From: a virus
Lineage: Duplodnaviria; Caudoviricetes
DNA length: 25,090 nt
Reading direction: 5' to 3' (one strand)
Virus record (IMG/VR): IMGVR_UViG_3300028145_000047
Span: 1-25,090 of that record
The position numbers were made by a program, and so were the translations under genes. Under the pieces are notes generated by a model that searched no databases, was not told the origin of the DNA, and saw nothing but the letters and a program-made list of their open reading frames with translations. Each line of letters starts with the position of its first letter. Position 1 is the first letter of the stretch. This document shows positions 2,339 to 11,999 of the stretch, piece after piece.

Positions 2339-3385
2339 TCAGGTAACCTGAGATTCGGTATTCAGGAGCTGGTCGACGATCTTGATCGGGATGCCGCGGA
2401 ACACATCGCACGGCATGCCGGCATAGTCGGTCAGATGCAGCAACACGTTGCGGTCGCGCATGCCCTGGACGTCCATCCAGTGGCGCAGCGTTCGGTTGCA
2501 GTAGAAGACCGGGCGGATGCCGGGCGACGGATCGTTGACGGCGTCGGTCTTGGTGATGCCGGACGTTCCCTTACCGAGGTGCGGCGGCAGGAACATGACC
2601 TGCGCCATGGTGGCGAAGATGTCGAGCGCGTTCGGCCCGGCTAGGCCGGCGTTCGTGGTGTCGATGTTCGCGACACGCGCGCCGTACCGCCAATCCTGCG
2701 GGCACAGGCCCATCTGATGCCGGAACCACGAGGTATAGGCCTCGAACCGGTTGCCGAGCGAATCAAAGCCAGGCGTGGTGTCGGCCTTGTCTTCCATCGT
2801 GAGGCCCGCCTTGGAGCCGCGCGGATAGAGGCCGAAGATCGTTCGCTCGCCCCAGCAAATCAGCCACAGTGAGCAATTGGCCGAGGCCGTGCCGCCGCCG
2901 GAAATGACGTTCTGGGCGTTCTGGGCGTTGGCCTGCGTGATCGTATTGTAAAAGGGCGACATGCCCATGAACTCGATCGGCGTCACGGTCGTATTGCCGT
3001 AGAAAAGCGTCTGAGCCATCGTCTGGCTCATGCCCTCCAGGAACGCGACGTCCTCATTCTCGCGGAACTGGTCGATGTCGCCGGAATCCTCGGCGAGCAT
3101 GCGGTCGACCTGGGAATAGTCTTCCAGCGAGCCCAGACCGACCCGCGCCTTTGCGGTGGTCGACTTGCTGTAGGGGATGCCCATATTGTACTGGCGCCAA
3201 GCGCCGGCCGGGATCGAAGTCCGGAAGACGAACTCGTGGCCGCCGATCTCATTGGCCTCGAGGATCGGCATATCGTCCCAGATATCGTTTGCCTGGGACA
3301 GCATTTCCGAAATGTAGACCTGCTTCTGCGCGCCGTTGATGCGGCTTGAGAGATCGATAAGGGTGGGCCACTGACCGGTCGCCAT
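2339..3385 (-). CDS. Major capsid protein (HK97 fold, BPP-1 Bbp17-like)
   Basis: 348 aa; PTLIDL, RTSIPAGAWR, EDVAFLEGMSQ, LFYGN, DWRYGARVANID and FRGIPIKIVDQLLNTE motifs; AAGGAG RBS; follows the scaffold gene. Confidence 0.92.
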   Translation of the reverse strand: MATGQWPTLIDLSSRINGAQKQVYISEMLSQANDIWDDMPILEANEIGGHEFVFRTSIPAGAWRQYNMGIPYSKSTTAKARVGLGSLEDYSQVDRMLAEDSGDIDQFRENEDVAFLEGMSQTMAQTLFYGNTTVTPIEFMGMSPFYNTITQANAQNAQNVISGGGTASANCSLWLICWGERTIFGLYPRGSKAGLTMEDKADTTPGFDSLGNRFEAYTSWFRHQMGLCPQDWRYGARVANIDTTNAGLAGPNALDIFATMAQVMFLPPHLGKGTSGITKTDAVNDPSPGIRPVFYCNRTLRHWMDVQGMRDRNVLLHLTDYAGMPCDVFRGIPIKIVDQLLNTESQVT

Positions 3386-5196: not shown

Positions 5197-5227
5197 CTTG
5201 CCCGAACACTGATAATCGGTGATTATT
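5197..5227 (+). promoter_or_regulatory. Putative promoter and palindromic operator for the plus-strand cassette
   Basis: TTGCCC (5198-5203), 17 bp spacer, GATTAT (5221-5226); inverted repeat ATAATC-ggt-GATTAT (5212-5226) in the divergent intergenic region. Confidence 0.45.
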
Positions 5228-5255: not shown

Positions 5256-5471
5256 ATGGCCGACGAAAAAGAGTGGCTAAATCGCAAAGATGCAGCGCGA
5301 TTCCTTACCTCGATCGGCTGTCCGATCTCTCCAGGGACGCTCGCAAACTACGCTTCGAACAACAACGCCGGCAAAGGCCCGCCGTTTACCCGCTTCCGGT
5401 GGAATCGGGTCTCCTATCACAAGCCCGAGTTGCGCCTTTGGGCCGCTCGGCAGAGCATAAAGGTGGCGTGA
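5256..5471 (+). CDS. Excisionase/AlpA-like helix-turn-helix DNA-binding protein
   Basis: GGAGG RBS; WLNRKDAARFL...SPGTLANYAS...GKGPPF...RVSY...LRLW pattern of MerR/Xis-like winged HTH proteins. Confidence 0.8.
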   Translation: MADEKEWLNRKDAARFLTSIGCPISPGTLANYASNNNAGKGPPFTRFRWNRVSYHKPELRLWAARQSIKVA

Positions 5472-5704
5472 TGATTCTCACGACGTTCAAGGGCATAGAT
5501 CCGTCGGCCTCGCGGCGCGGTTGCGAGGAATACGACATGGAGGACGGCACTACGTTCCTCTGGCCGCGATGCGAGATCAGCGGCTGCGCCAACGGCATCT
5601 GCGCAGGGATGAGCAAGAGCCTTTGCTACCCGCACGGGATTGAGTTCGGAGCGTTCACCGTGGCACAGTTTGAGGCCAACCGAAGGAAGAAGTTCGCCGA
5701 ATGA
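5471..5704 (+). CDS. Small Cys/His-rich hypothetical protein (77 aa)
   Basis: TGATG coupling to the HTH gene; CEISGC...C...CYPH suggests metal binding. Confidence 0.6.
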   Translation: MILTTFKGIDPSASRRGCEEYDMEDGTTFLWPRCEISGCANGICAGMSKSLCYPHGIEFGAFTVAQFEANRRKKFAE

Positions 5705-5970
5705 CCCTCCAGCCCTCCCGCCGCGGCTTCATCACCGGCCTCGTGTCGCTCGCGGTCACCGCCCCGGCCATCGTCAAATCTGCCAGCCTTATGCCCGTGA
5801 AGCTGATGCTGCCGAGCCGGCCGAGCCTGATCTACAGCAACCGCGTGATCCGCCGTTATGTGGACATTGAGGCTTTCCGAGATCGAAACATTTTGCTGCG
5901 GATTACCGAGGATGTGAATTATCTGGCAGTGCCGATCCGTGTGATCGACTTAGGTCCATCGCCATGGTGA
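5701..5970 (+). CDS. Tat-like leader fused to a major capsid protein C-terminal fragment
   Basis: SRRGFITG leader; residues 45-83 align to MCP residues 295-338, with 12/26 identical in the ungapped first block; ATGA coupling. Confidence 0.8.
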   Translation: MTLQPSRRGFITGLVSLAVTAPAIVKSASLMPVKLMLPSRPSLIYSNRVIRRYVDIEAFRDRNILLRITEDVNYLAVPIRVIDLGPSPW

Positions 5971-6290
5971 CTAGTCGCCGCTCGTTCATCACCGGCCTGA
6001 TCGCCTTCGCCGCCGCGCCTGCGATCGTCCGCGCGTCTAGTCTGATGCCGGTCAAGGCTATGGTGCCGGATCTGGAATGGCTTGAAGAGGATTTCGTTTT
6101 CCGGACTTCCATTCCCGCTGGAGATTGGCGGATGATCAATGCGCCATATGGGCGGTCGCCGGCCATGGACTGCCTGCTTGGGGCCAAGGAGGTGTGCGCC
6201 CATCTTGAACGGTTCCTGCGCCGAGCGCCGCCGATCATCGAGTTCGACAAGATCGACACCTCAGACCCGCTGTGGGCGATGCCGAAGTGA
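5964..6290 (+). CDS. Tat-like leader fused to major capsid and portal fragments (chimera)
   Basis: SRRSFITG leader; FVFRTSIPAGDWR matches MCP 52-64 at 12/13; NAPYGRSPAMDCLLGAK matches portal 315-331 at 11/17. Confidence 0.85.
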   Translation: MVTSRRSFITGLIAFAAAPAIVRASSLMPVKAMVPDLEWLEEDFVFRTSIPAGDWRMINAPYGRSPAMDCLLGAKEVCAHLERFLRRAPPIIEFDKIDTSDPLWAMPK

Positions 6291-6466
6291 GATACGCGCT
6301 GATCGCCATCGGCATCTGGCTCGTCCTGGCAATGACCGTTGGCCCGATCGTCGACTACGCCGAACACACCATTCGAACGGCGATTCACGTCGCTTACGAA
6401 TGCAAGGACCGAGGACGGTCAGAGCCCGAATGCCGTCATGATGTTAGGACGGAACTTACCCGTTGA
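6287..6466 (+). CDS. Small single-pass membrane protein
   Basis: GTGA overlap with the previous stop; N-terminal hydrophobic helix followed by a Cys pair (ECKDRGRSEPEC). Confidence 0.6.
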   Translation: MRYALIAIGIWLVLAMTVGPIVDYAEHTIRTAIHVAYECKDRGRSEPECRHDVRTELTR

Positions 6467-6824
6467 TAGTCACATTGAGGATCGCACGCGCACCGCCTTG
6501 TGCCGTAACGGCGTTACCTTCAATCAAAGACTTGATCGCGTCGAGGATCGTTTTTGCTTGTGTGAACTGCGTGGATGAAAGTGCCTGCGATAGGGCTACG
6601 CTGCTGATTGGATGGGCAGTGTTCGGAGCGCCATCAGCGGCACCCGGAGATCCATCGGCATTCACAGCCGTCGTCGCCATAGCGGCCAAAACCGTAGCCG
6701 CTCCCGTATCCGTCCAAGCTGCATCGAGAGCAACAATCTGCTGATACAGCACCATCATCTGCTGCGAGATCGAAACGATGTTGTTAGCGATCCTGATCGC
6801 CTGTGAATTTAGCGTTCCTGACAT
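6456..6824 (-). CDS. Hypothetical protein coupled to the fibre gene (possible chaperone or structural protein)
   Basis: TAATG overlap with the fibre gene stop; GGGAG RBS; helical, Ala/Gln-rich. Confidence 0.7.
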   Translation of the reverse strand: MSGTLNSQAIRIANNIVSISQQMMVLYQQIVALDAAWTDTGAATVLAAMATTAVNADGSPGAADGAPNTAHPISSVALSQALSSTQFTQAKTILDAIKSLIEGNAVTAQGGARAILNVTING

Positions 6825-8902
6825 TATAGTCTCCCATATATTCTGACAGTGCCGCTGGTGATATTCCCGCTATTGAACAGTACCTGAAAACCATCGATAG
6901 CGCCATTGCCGCCGTTCCAATATCCGCCGTAGGTAGCGACGAATGCGTTCGTCGCATTCGTCGAAACCATGACACCTGACCACATTTTCGGGGCCGTCGT
7001 CTGCGACGGCTTGTTGACCCGCACATATCCATTCAGGCCGGGAGCAGCATTCGAGACTGATGCTGCACTGGATATCGAAATGAACGTCGTCGTGTTGTTG
7101 ACCGCCGTTACTGTTGCTGCCGCTAAATTTGTTGCGATGTACGAAGTCGCAGGGAAGGTACCACCGCTATGAACCTGCAACTCGAACGTGGTGGCGTTGG
7201 TCGCCGGGATGATATCTTCGAACTCGATATTGTACTCGTCGAATGCTGCGGTCAGACTCGTCGTGTCAGACAATGTAGCCGAATTGCTGGCTGTGAGCGT
7301 GTTGAGCAGCACATATCCGCCATCAGCGCCAGGCTGATGCGGGCACAGATAATTCGTGCCATCTGATACGATTTTGAGAGTCTGCCCCGGATAGATCTTG
7401 ACCGAACTCCCACCGCAGATAGTTGACGTCGTCGGCGTGACCGTAACTATCGCTGCTGGCTGTGTTGTCGGCTGGATATTGCGAATTTCTGTGAACCAGC
7501 CGGCGAAGAATGCGCTCGCTGTGCTGGCTTGTGCGATCGTGTAGGCTTGAGCTGCCGTGTTGCTGGCGGTGACGAGCTTCCCTCGATCGCCGTCAGCGAT
7601 GGCATAGCTCGTTCCTACTTGCGCATTGACGCACTCTGCCGCCGATAGCGTCGTCTGGCCTGCGGTCTGGGAGCAGTTCGCGGTCGTGGACGAAACTAAT
7701 CCTGCGCCTGGCGTCGTGACCGTTCCAGAGCCTGCGGAAACCCATGAAGTGACGCCAGTGCCATCGGTTTGGAGAATGTTGGTATTCGACCCATTGGTGG
7801 CCGGCAGTTGAAAGATCGTGCTCGTACCGGCCGCAGCAGCCACACGCACCGCAGCACTGCCCGACGTCGATCCGTTGAGAGTGATCTGGCCGCCGGTGCC
7901 TCCGTTCGCTCCCAGCGTCGGCGTAGCGGTCGCCGCGATCGTATTAGCCGAAGCGGAGCCGAGCACGGTGCCTGCTGCCGTTGTCGCAGGATAAGTGGCC
8001 GTCGACCACGAAGGCGTCGTAGATGAGCCAGAAAGCGGAATCTGATTTGCCGTCGCGGTGCCAGCGAGGATCGCAAGTGCAGATGCGGTCGAATAGACCA
8101 GTCCGCCATTGCTTGCAGCGGCAGGGTATCCTACGGCCGCCCAAGATGGAGTTACCGAGGCGCCGGACAGAAGCGGCACGGACGCTGTCGCTGTCCCGGC
8201 AAGAATGTTCAACTTCGATGCGTCGGACCAAACGATGCCGCCAGCCGATGCCGTCAGGTTGGCGTTCGTGCCGCCATTCGCCAAGGGCACAAGACCGGAG
8301 AGGGTCGACAGAGTGAAACTGAGTGTGAACCCGGCTCCCGTGCCGCCGCCCGTAAGCGTCCCCACTGTCGTCAATGATGACGTGACAACGTTCGATGCCA
8401 GCGTCGTTCCTGTCACCGTACCGGCTGGAGCGATGACGACATTCGTCCCCGCCAGCGTAAGTTGGCCTTGCTGGTTGACCGTGAAATTCGGAATCGCTGT
8501 CGATGAACCGTAAGATGCCGGCGTTACCGCGGTGTTCGTGATGTTGAGATTGCCGGCGCCACTCGAAAGACCTGTCCCGATATTGAGCGGGAAGATCGTG
8601 CCAGGCGAAACGCTGTTGAGTTTCGTGCAAGTCAGGACGCCTAGATTTATGATCGTGCAATCACCCGAGATCGCAACTCCCGTAGCAACATTCAAGCTGT
8701 TGCCGACATAGACGAACTGATTCGTCAGCGGCAGGCCGGCGGCAATGCTGTTGCCAACAAATGCGGTCGATGCGCAGCGGTTCGAGCTATCGCCCGTCGG
8801 GGCGGTCGGGCAAATCGAATTTTGGGCATAGGTCGGCGCCCAGAGCAGCGCCAGAGCAAGGAGAGCGGCCTTAGCCGTAAAGAGACAGCGCAGTAAGCGC
8901 AT
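6824..8902 (-). CDS. Fibre/adhesin-like protein with Sec signal peptide (~692 aa)
   Basis: Start MRLLRCLFTAKAALLALALLWAPTYA|Q behind GGGGA; Thr/Ser/Gly/Ala-rich; fibre-type motifs (VPLANGGTNA, LQTDGTGVTSW, SDGTNY, SGNITSGTVRIYG); tandem ~45 aa internal repeat. Confidence 0.75.
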   Translation of the reverse strand: MRLLRCLFTAKAALLALALLWAPTYAQNSICPTAPTGDSSNRCASTAFVGNSIAAGLPLTNQFVYVGNSLNVATGVAISGDCTIINLGVLTCTKLNSVSPGTIFPLNIGTGLSSGAGNLNITNTAVTPASYGSSTAIPNFTVNQQGQLTLAGTNVVIAPAGTVTGTTLASNVVTSSLTTVGTLTGGGTGAGFTLSFTLSTLSGLVPLANGGTNANLTASAGGIVWSDASKLNILAGTATASVPLLSGASVTPSWAAVGYPAAASNGGLVYSTASALAILAGTATANQIPLSGSSTTPSWSTATYPATTAAGTVLGSASANTIAATATPTLGANGGTGGQITLNGSTSGSAAVRVAAAAGTSTIFQLPATNGSNTNILQTDGTGVTSWVSAGSGTVTTPGAGLVSSTTANCSQTAGQTTLSAAECVNAQVGTSYAIADGDRGKLVTASNTAAQAYTIAQASTASAFFAGWFTEIRNIQPTTQPAAIVTVTPTTSTICGGSSVKIYPGQTLKIVSDGTNYLCPHQPGADGGYVLLNTLTASNSATLSDTTSLTAAFDEYNIEFEDIIPATNATTFELQVHSGGTFPATSYIATNLAAATVTAVNNTTTFISISSAASVSNAAPGLNGYVRVNKPSQTTAPKMWSGVMVSTNATNAFVATYGGYWNGGNGAIDGFQVLFNSGNITSGTVRIYGRL

Positions 8903-9554
8903 TGGCATTCCCCGATTGAGCCGCGCCGTTCCATGCGCAATTGATCTTGACGTAGTCGTTCCCCAAGATGGTCTTGGTATCGCCCGGAAGCACGATGATC
9001 GAACCGGCCCCGATCGATGCCCCGAGGTTCGACGGGCAGACCCCGATCTGCACCGCCCCCGGATTATGGAATTGCACGCCCATCCGGTTCGGATCGGCCG
9101 CAAGGATCTGCTGCGATCCGGTCCCGAGCGTCAGCGTCTCCGCGGAAACAGGCGATGCGATCGAGTTCTGCATCAAGGTCCGGATCGTCTGCCGCACCTG
9201 GGGAGCGCCCGGCGTGTTCGGAGTGAACGAGAGCACGGTCAAGAGCCCGTCGGTGTTGTCGTCGGTCACCGCCTGCCAAGCCACATTGATGTTGAAGTGC
9301 GAGCCCTGATCCTGCAGCAACTTGTACTCGGATTGCGGGTAGATCACGATGCCGCCGGTGCCGCCGACCAGCGCCTGACCCACGGGAAGTATCCGCTTCG
9401 GCTTGCTGCCCGGGTTGTGGAAAATCACGCCTTTGCACGCCGGATCGGCCGCCAGCACGGTCTGGGCTACCGTCGTCAATCCGGTGACAGCGATCGAATA
9501 CGGCCCGAGGATCGGGTAATCACTCCATGAAATGCCAGAGGTGACGCCCATCAC
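8871..9554 (-). CDS. Two-repeat beta-domain putative virion decoration protein
   Basis: Internal duplication: VLAADPACKGVIFHNPG...GGIVIYP...INVAW versus ILAADPNRMGVQFHNPG...GSIIVLP...INCAW. Confidence 0.7.
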   Translation of the reverse strand: MMGVTSGISWSDYPILGPYSIAVTGLTTVAQTVLAADPACKGVIFHNPGSKPKRILPVGQALVGGTGGIVIYPQSEYKLLQDQGSHFNINVAWQAVTDDNTDGLLTVLSFTPNTPGAPQVRQTIRTLMQNSIASPVSAETLTLGTGSQQILAADPNRMGVQFHNPGAVQIGVCPSNLGASIGAGSIIVLPGDTKTILGNDYVKINCAWNGAAQSGNANALTALSLYG

Positions 9555-11630: not shown

Positions 11631-11999
11631 TCACGGGTTGGCGTGAACGGAGACGATCTGGCCAGCCACGACGCCGAAATATTCGATGGTCTTGGCCGGG
11701 AGGTAGGCGTTTGTCGCTGCGGCGGTCTGGGGGCTGGCGCCGAACAGGAGGGAGCAATCCGAATCACTCACCACGCGAATGTATTTGGTCGTGGCGGCAA
11801 AGGCTGCGGAGGAGGCCGCGCCTCCGCTGTAATCGACCACGGCTTGGTCGGTGCATGGCTGGGACGCGAAAACGGCTACCGTCGTGCCGATCTGGGGGAG
11901 ATTCTTGCACTCCGAGATGTAGAGTTTTGATGCGGCCTCGGCCGGCACCGCAAGGAAGAATGCCGCTATGATCGCGGCCGCACCCCAGATTTTGCGCAT
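11631..11999 (-). CDS. Signal-peptide-bearing putative virion accessory protein
   Basis: MRKIWGAAAIIAAFFLAVPAEA|A leader; beta-rich body (TKYIRVVSD, YLPAKTIEYFGV); GAGGG RBS. Confidence 0.75.
   Translation of the reverse strand: MRKIWGAAAIIAAFFLAVPAEAASKLYISECKNLPQIGTTVAVFASQPCTDQAVVDYSGGAASSAAFAATTKYIRVVSDSDCSLLFGASPQTAAATNAYLPAKTIEYFGVVAGQIVSVHANP

What the first reader, a model, noticed from the sequence alone, without database searches (positions are those of the whole stretch)
5701..5970. Second Tat-leader gene whose payload is the C-terminal segment of a major capsid protein
Seen: YSNRVIRRYVDIEAFRDRNILLRITE aligns without gaps to MCP 295-320 YCNRTLRHWMDVQGMRDRNVLLHLTD (12/26 identical, most other positions conservative). 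VNYLAVPIRVID then matches DVFRGIPIKIVD after a short deletion. It is more diverged from the resident MCP than the neighbouring chimera is. Inference: either an older capture or a mimic of a related phage's capsid. As a fragment it cannot fold as a capsid subunit, so it could act as a decoy or an assembly poison.
Basis: partly seen in the sequence, partly recalled or inferred. Interest (0 to 1): 0.88.

Follow-up and report, generated by a model that had tools for sequence, protein, structure and literature searches.

The report
Tat-tagged capsid fragment, likely decoy
A small optional phage gene joins an export-type (twin-arginine) signal to a diverged 46-residue piece of the capsid protein, and it belongs to a large family in which unrelated phages do the same with pieces of their own kind of capsid or portal; the products likely serve as baits for host anti-phage sensors, which is untested.

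Summary
Observation confirmed. ORF 5701-5970 is a twin-arginine leader (aa 1-34) fused to a copy of major capsid protein (MCP) 288-338 (score 94; shuffles 26.8±4.1, 0 of 2000). It belongs to a large family: 3870 of 8000 scored candidates matched. Of 336 non-redundant payloads, 159 trace to six MCP and three portal families (reversed controls: 1), nearly always in the coding frame. Where the resident MCP family is known, payloads match it 27 times, mismatch 0, unassigned 22. Payloads are under purifying selection, are never recent copies of the resident MCP (13 of 13), and are often chimeric. The same MCP segment also sits behind 12 divergent twin-arginine leaders. The resident MCP is an average match (rank 151 of 197); no sampled MCP is close. 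Best reading (0.4): a bait for host capsid sensors that Tat would take out of the cytoplasm. Rivals: assembly poison for kin phages; an envelope role. No binding, export or expression was shown. My paper searches found no description. This scan noted the family before on other DNA (48 notes, at least 44 genomes).

The parts
5701..5970 (+). Gene A, 89 aa: twin-arginine leader plus MCP-derived payload
   Evidence: start overlaps the stop of the upstream ORF (ATGA)
5701..5802 (+). Leader of A (aa 1-34): S-R-R-x-F-I, hydrophobic stretch, A-P-A-I-V-K/R-x, then conserved S-L-M-P-V-K; predicted Tat signal
   Evidence: similar to signals of bacterial periplasmic binding proteins
5812..5949 (+). Payload of A (aa 38-83), homologous to MCP 288-338: strand, helix, shortened loop, final strand
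2372..2524 (-). Segment of the resident MCP gene (aa 288-338) homologous to the payload
2339..3385 (-). Resident major capsid protein, GP7 family (BPP-1 / epsilon15-like HK97 fold)
   Evidence: Pfam PF20911 E 1e-98; PDB 3J4U, 3J40, 8CJZ
5964..6290 (+). Gene B, 108 aa: same leader, MCP 48-78 piece fused to portal 312-334 piece; C-terminal tail shared with P0004 and P0012
9551..11383 (-). Resident portal (Head-tail_con), homologous to the second piece of B
5256..5471 (+). First gene of the + strand accessory operon; looks like a small DNA-binding (excisionase-like) protein by eye, no family hit; homologues in many relatives
   Evidence: the label is recalled
5198..5226 (+). Candidate sigma70-type promoter (TTGCCC-17 nt-GATTAT) for the accessory operon
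   Evidence: pattern in 9 of 30 related upstream regions against a shuffle mean of 0.6, devised after seeing the data; not called by the consensus scan
5468..5704 (+). Small Cys-rich ORF coupled to the start of A; no family hit
6287..6466 (+). Small ORF with a hydrophobic N-terminus coupled to the end of B; no reliable family hit

Best explanation
Gene A encodes a diverged piece of the major capsid protein behind a predicted Tat export signal, and the product likely acts as a bait that would occupy a host sensor of capsid protein and take it to the membrane or out of the cytoplasm, so that the phage's own capsid protein escapes detection. Shown: (1) the payload comes from a GP7-family MCP; (2) such pieces were captured repeatedly, in frame, behind twin-arginine leaders, and shuffled into chimeras with portal pieces; (3) leader and payload are kept by purifying selection; (4) the payload belongs to the carrier's own structural family. 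Inferred: (5) the operon is transcribed separately from the late genes by host polymerase; (6) the leader engages Tat; (7) the payload binds a host pattern-recognition protein without firing it; (8) the complex is parked at the translocase, exported as a hitchhiker or degraded. Divergence from the resident MCP would follow from the need not to trigger the sensor, poison the phage's own heads or recombine with the MCP gene.
For: Payload sources are MCPs and portals: 159 of 336, reversed 1; 49 coding-frame hits against 1 in any other frame among 127 genes. Resident family concordance 27 match, 0 mismatch, 22 unassigned of 49; for 7 genes in 6 records the family was assigned from other phages first and the resident MCP found later agreed. 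Payload dN/dS 0.07-0.36 in the pairs of 75-98% aa identity that have synonymous changes, up to 0.54 in distant pairs. Twin arginine in 333 of 334 leaders. The same MCP segment lies behind 12 divergent twin-arginine leaders, and behind both leader genes found in an MCP-first sample (2 of 47 loci). MCP and portal are documented triggers of several sensor families, and Avs7 engages the penton/hexon-forming A-domain face (PMC13581612, abstract and passages). One relative, P0217, carries an N-terminal gp23 piece, the part of T4 gp23 in which the 29-residue Gol peptide lies (PMC3014915, passages; exact overlap recalled). Carriers look mostly non-integrating: tyrosine integrase in 5 of 24 near-complete records, 1 provirus of 34, and no strong match in 401 genomes of one bacterial order. 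That suits a benefit during lytic infection.
Against: No binding, export or expression data. Avs sensors recognise whole folds over large interfaces (PMC13581612), so a 46-residue piece may bind poorly. Where a short capsid peptide is known to act (Gol), it triggers defence and does not block it. Tat rejects unstructured cargo with hydrophobic stretches (PMC6708511, passages), and this payload has some. Terminase is also a common sensor target (recalled), yet 0 of 334 payloads hit it here, although earlier unchecked scan notes report terminase pieces on other DNA. 177 of 336 payloads are unassigned. The sample is enriched for A-like payloads and for RR leaders by the way it was collected. MCP-fragment ORFs without this leader exist (5 loci), so Tat is not required for the habit. 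The integrase test had no non-carrier control and did not cover serine integrases.
Confidence: 0.4

Rival explanations
1. The fragment is a dominant-negative poison for related phages: it binds or caps their assembling MCP (B also portal) and the leader tethers or removes the complex. The carrier is spared by timing or by divergence.
For: Payloads always come from the carrier's own family, as a dominant negative needs. MCP and portal are both homo-oligomers (established). The resident MCP was not the best match in 6 of 7 GP7 cases and was at or below the median in 5 of 7. The operon is on the opposite strand with its own candidate promoter, like a moron. Assembly blocking by prophage genes is known (Tai, PMC11364771, abstract and outline only).
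Against: A is as similar to its own MCP as to the median relative (score 94 = median), so self-sparing is not evident. Most near-complete carriers show no tyrosine integrase (19 of 24) and the family was nearly absent from 401 bacterial genomes. A stoichiometric poison would face very abundant MCP (inference).
Confidence: 0.22
2. The protein works at the envelope: it is exported or stays as an uncleaved membrane anchor, and there blocks a membrane or periplasmic defence component, jams Tat, or tethers the phage's own head assembly.
For: The leader is far more conserved than the payload, including seven residues beyond the likely cleavage site. Payloads are short (median 63 aa), within the length Tat tolerates for unstructured cargo (PMC6708511). 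52 of 332 leaders have Val at the first candidate -1 position. The Atlas lists a Rieske Tat-anchor cluster as a weak lead (score 0.86).
Against: It does not explain why payloads are in-frame head-protein pieces of the carrier's family under purifying selection. The leader's end matches signals of soluble periplasmic binding proteins whose mature domain follows soon after, which favours cleavage. Close relatives lack the gene, so it is not needed for head assembly.
Confidence: 0.2
3. The payloads are relics of recombination between an accessory gene and head genes and have no function of their own.
For: L101 shows a leader gene joined in place to the 3' 145 codons of an MCP gene, consistent with recombination or an assembly switch at a 45-nt identical stretch; L094 has an interrupted copy. 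Most 90% clusters are singletons.
Against: dN/dS is well below 1 in payloads. MCP motifs persist while synonymous sites are near saturation against the resident MCP in 13 of 13 cases. Hits are in the coding frame 49 to 1. The same segment recurs behind different leaders.
Confidence: 0.08

Closest known systems
GP7-family major capsid proteins (PF20911; BPP-1 3J4U, epsilon15 3J40, Carin1 8CJZ)
   Same: The payload is homologous to their C-terminal strand-helix-loop-strand element.
   Different: Only 46 of 348 residues, loop shortened, behind a signal peptide; too short to form the HK97 fold; absent from close relatives.
Tat signal peptides of bacterial periplasmic binding proteins (PF10518; SBP_bac, Peripla_BP_6, DctP carriers)
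   Same: S/T-R-R-x-F-I/L, moderate hydrophobic region, basic residue before an A-x-A-like end; some bacterial signals end in the same A-P-A-I-V-R-A.
   Different: Cargo is a short capsid fragment and not a folded domain; a conserved xSLMPVK follows; A itself has no PF10518 hit and B scores 15 bits against a cut-off of 22.7.
DSAD1, inhibitor of DSR2
   Same: A phage protein that occupies the site where a structural trigger binds its sensor (PMC11087589, passages): the working model for what A would do.
   Different: The passages I read do not describe DSAD1 as a copied piece of the trigger (not checked further), nor a signal peptide or a swappable payload library.
Tai (and Tab, recalled) virion-assembly inhibitors
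   Same: Accessory genes of phages and satellites that act on virion assembly (PMC11364771, abstract).
   Different: They block tail assembly; A is made of capsid sequence, has a Tat-type leader, and has no PADLOC hit.
Gol peptide of T4 gp23 / Lit
   Same: Shows that a 29-residue capsid peptide can engage host machinery alone (PMC3014915).
   Different: Gol is part of the intact MCP and triggers defence; A is a separate gene.

Membership tests
GP7 major capsid protein | Sequence homology to the family | tested here: met
   local GP7 profile, positions 292-338, E 1.6e-8; score 94 against shuffles; Pfam GP7 itself gives no hit for A
GP7 major capsid protein | Full HK97 fold (about 330-350 aa) | tested here: not met
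   46 homologous residues only
Tat substrate | S/T-R-R-x-F-L-K-like motif | tested here: met
   SRRGFI in A; RR in 333 of 334 leaders, F or L three places on in 331; collection favours RR
Tat substrate | Moderately hydrophobic h-region with a basic residue before the cleavage region | tested here: met
   hydropathy peak 1.6; R/K in 330 of 332
Tat substrate | Score above the PF10518 cut-off | tested here: not met
   A no hit, B 15 bits, relatives up to 20.5 against 22.7
Tat substrate | Signal peptidase I site | tested here: inconclusive
   V-R-A common (Ala in 262 of 332), A has V-K-S-A-S; a second small-residue site lies two places on; no signal predictor on hand
Tat substrate | TatC-dependent export | not testable with these tools
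   needs fractionation in tat+ and tat- cells
Competitive anti-sensor protein (DSAD1-like) | Binds a host sensor at the trigger site and blocks activation | not testable with these tools
   no partner is known; the complex predictor was not available
Virion-assembly inhibitor (Tai-like) | Homology to known defence proteins | tested here: not met
   no PADLOC 2.0 hit for 7 of 7 cassette and flanking proteins
Virion-assembly inhibitor (Tai-like) | Carried by prophages or satellites | tested here: inconclusive
   integrase in 8 of 34 carriers, 1 provirus; two short family-like ORFs in 1 of 401 genomes
Moron-type accessory gene | Optional, between core genes, own promoter | tested here: inconclusive
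   optional and between portal and scaffold; promoter only a post hoc pattern

The most novel reading that the evidence does not exclude
Unrelated soil phages keep a modular epitope library: they repeatedly copy conserved surfaces of their own head proteins behind a Tat signal, shuffle them into multi-epitope strings, and use the host's Tat machine to tow pattern-recognition receptors out of the cytoplasm. The captured segments would then map which capsid and portal surfaces bacterial sensors see.
Probability: 0.3. Interest if true: 0.93.

Novelty: categorically new. Interest (0 to 1): 0.8.

Why it matters
Capsid and portal are among the best-documented triggers of bacterial immunity, and phages have little room to mutate them. 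A general design that turns pieces of those proteins into separate, selected, export-tagged genes would be a new counter-defence or phage-competition strategy. It recurs across six unrelated capsid families and supplies hundreds of natural baits for finding unknown sensors. It is also a clear case of gene birth by repeated fragment capture and shuffling.

Tried and rejected
First MCP model (12 sequences, pLDDT 40) discarded; the second (126 sequences, pLDDT 78.6) used for secondary structure only, with no exposure data. Atlas: nearest clusters are unnamed; its model of A has pLDDT 0.42 and the structure hits are uninformative. P0124 and P0129 in the phmmer list are long repeat proteins without the leader and were dropped. 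No match for A among 50,697 GenBank phage records; B gave only E of 2-3. The genome-contig scan gave only an unrelated Tat-signal protein. No RNA holder listed. Read laying gave no close allele of A; one depth-2.6 contig over B showed 5 synonymous and 3 non-synonymous codons among 9 listed of 16 differences, too thin to count. RNA-guide or antisense action on the resident MCP mRNA rejected: no DNA match for A, synonymous sites near saturation. Single origin of A-type payloads is not supported and not excluded: 4 label changes (bootstrap 3-5) on a 50-column tree whose bootstrap had not settled, using 14 payloads and 48 MCP rows. Uneven column conservation among payloads is confounded by selection through query A, so I did not count it.

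Full report
Setting. The window is a linear virus record of 25,090 bases, estimated 38% complete. Its head module lies on the minus strand: terminase, portal (PF12236), scaffold-like gene and a GP7-family MCP, related to BPP-1, epsilon15 and Carin1 capsids by sequence and by fold. Between portal and scaffold sits a plus-strand run of five small ORFs (5256-6466); the last four overlap at their stop and start codons. Gene A is the third and gene B the fourth.

The observation. A 45-70 matches MCP 295-320 at 12 of 26 without gaps, and the alignment extends over A 38-83 and MCP 288-338 with one short deletion. The score is 94 against shuffles of 26.8±4.1, 0 of 2000. On an AlphaFold model of the MCP (pLDDT 78.6) the segment is strand 291-296, helix 298-310, a loop and strand 332-337. 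That this element belongs to the axial (A) domain is recalled, not computed here. B shares the leader and carries MCP 48-78 fused to portal 312-334.

The family. A finds relatives that share the leader but differ after it. A profile matched 3870 of the 8000 candidates scored, mostly singleton clusters among the 120 listed. I kept proteins and loci with a full leader match above 25 bits and a payload of 20 aa or more, which dropped 14 of 245 proteins, and reduced 402 payloads to 334 at 85% identity. Of these, 96 hit other ORFs of the fetched loci at E<0.01, against 1 reversed and 1 shuffled control. The targets were MCPs of six families (GP7, P22 coat, PF13252, Gp23, phrog_9953, a Mu gpT-like family), portals, one tail collar domain and four small leftover clusters. 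With nine local profiles 159 of 336 payloads were assigned, reversed 1; among locus-derived genes 56 of 129. Against profiles of eleven window gene families, MCP took 61, portal 26, and terminase, scaffold and the rest 0; 14 payloads had two or more segments. A wider check against 2883 long ORFs, 39 of them terminase-like, added no terminase hit. Earlier unchecked scan notes report terminase pieces on other DNA, so I do not treat terminase as excluded. The protein sample is enriched for A-like payloads because A was the query.

Selection at the protein level. Translating payload DNA in six frames gave 49 hits in the gene's own frame and 1 in another frame among 127 genes; detection itself favours the coding frame. 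Between related genes, payload dN/dS was 0.07-0.36 for pairs of 75-98% identity that have synonymous changes and up to 0.54 for distant pairs; four near-identical comparisons had 1-2 non-synonymous changes and no synonymous one. Leaders gave median pS 0.66 and pN 0.23 against A. The pairs are not independent.

Whose capsid? In 49 leader genes whose resident MCP family is known, the payload matched it 27 times, mismatched 0 times and was unassigned 22 times. The profiles often include the resident MCP. However, for 7 genes in 6 records (L001, L026, L027 twice, L029, L032, L058) the family was first assigned from other phages or PHROGs and the resident found later agreed; one more record (L036, 61% complete) showed no MCP of the four families searched. 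Yet payloads are not fresh copies: against the resident MCP, identity was 38-75% and pS 0.55-0.89 in 13 of 13 cases. For A the resident ranks 151 of 197 on the 22-residue core, with the best MCP at 14 of 22, and at the median over the whole payload. The resident was the best match in 1 of 7 GP7 cases. Fresh captures exist: P0145 is 40 of 43 identical to the MCP of L238. L101 joins a leader gene to the last 145 codons of an MCP gene in place, which may be recombination or an assembly switch.

Recurrence. In an MCP-first sample of 80 loci, 47 had MCP and portal. None had a leader above my cut; two had weaker leaders at the same site and strand as A, and both carry the same MCP segment as A. L002 and L003 have A-type genes at that site, while the closest relatives lack them. 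Twelve of the 14 dropped proteins carry the same segment behind divergent twin-arginine leaders; they were found with A as query, which rewards some leader likeness. Five loci have MCP-fragment ORFs without this leader.

The leader. RR is present in 333 of 334, followed by x-F/L-I/L, a hydrophobic stretch and A-P-A-I-V-R/K-A/V-x-S-L/I-M-P-V-K. In 401 genomes of the order of G001, 8 gave weak matches only (best E 1.7e-5; at most 13 candidates scored per genome). I scanned 6 of the 9 loci: five are periplasmic binding proteins whose N-termini have the same form, three ending in A-P-A-I-V-R-A, and the sixth is a short family-like ORF. This fits the Tat signal anatomy in PMC6708511 (passages), but A has no PF10518 hit and export is not shown. 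A sigma70-like pattern lies upstream of the operon in 9 of 30 relatives (shuffle mean 0.6, max 4), a post hoc result; the consensus scan did not call it.

Mechanism. I favour a bait for host capsid sensors (0.4). MCP and portal trigger several sensor families, and Avs7 engages the penton/hexon-forming A-domain face (PMC13581612, abstract and passages). DSAD1 shows competitive blocking of a sensor (PMC11087589, passages). Carriers mostly lack a tyrosine integrase (8 of 34 have a match; 5 of 24 near-complete; no control set). Against it: Avs sensors read whole folds, the Gol peptide triggers defence (PMC3014915, passages), and hydrophobic unstructured cargo is a poor Tat substrate. Poisoning the assembly of kin phages (0.22; compare Tai, PMC11364771, abstract and outline) fits the family concordance equally but lacks evident self-sparing. 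An envelope role (0.2) fits the leader but not the payload pattern. A functionless relic (0.08) conflicts with the selection data. The complex predictor was not available, so no binding evidence exists either way.

Literature and novelty. Seven full-text searches aimed at such a family (terms combining phage, twin-arginine or Tat signal, capsid fragment or truncated capsid, decoy, mimic, dominant negative) listed no paper that describes it, judged from titles and abstract starts; three more searches were for background. I also read passages of PMC13728456, PMC12578639 and bioRxiv 10.64898/2026.06.04.730250 and found no such decoy in them. No supplements were read, and subscription papers are not covered. 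A has no Pfam, PHROGs or PADLOC family and no match among cultured phages. The scan's own notes hold 48 findings in at least 44 genomes for my search words, and the 8 shown describe the same design; these are unchecked and I do not count them as support.

Verdict. A real gene in a large, selected, apparently undescribed family. The anatomy and evolution are shown; the function is inferred. Interest 0.8.

Noticed in passing
window 5964-6290: Gene B's C-terminal tail is shared with P0004 and P0012, which carry different MCP pieces: evidence of module shuffling; the tail's source is unknown.
   Followed up: partly
L202:5271-5738 (+), L191:2-613 (-), L239:2-469 (-), L169:189-692 (+), L241:4837-5385 (+): MCP-fragment ORFs without the twin-arginine leader; L202 and L191 each join two separate MCP segments.
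   Followed up: partly
L101:1596-2148 and L094:3335-4082: L101 shares 1628 nt at 99.9% with L094 but lacks about 305 nt before the leader gene and continues into the MCP 3' end and the next late gene, facing away from a large minus-strand gene; L094's copy is interrupted by an insertion with a stop.
   Followed up: partly
L006:9950-11678, L030:9881-11724: In P22-coat phages the leader gene lies directly upstream of the MCP gene on the same strand and carries the MCP N-terminus.
   Followed up: no
L283 (G003:C1:7356-9497): The phrog_9953 MCP match is in three pieces separated by about 260 and 860 nt: a possible split or interrupted capsid gene.
   Followed up: no
L313:1303-1752 and L321:1300-1752 (G409): A bacterial genome holds two similar short ORFs with a variant leader and an unassigned payload; possibly prophage copies.
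   Followed up: no
window 5212-5226: A short inverted repeat (6-base arms, 3-base gap) overlaps the candidate promoter of the accessory operon; possible operator for the first gene.
   Followed up: no
L049:892-1284, L054:6047-6352, L055:5132-5425: A few payloads look tail-derived (collar domain, tail-fibre-like, hydrolase-like by eye) and not head-derived.
   Followed up: partly
window 11631-11999, 6824-9103, 8871-9554, 6456-6824: Several minus-strand genes sit between terminase, portal and scaffold where relatives differ; the portal-to-scaffold gap ranges from 0 to over 6 kb among 47 relatives.
   Followed up: no
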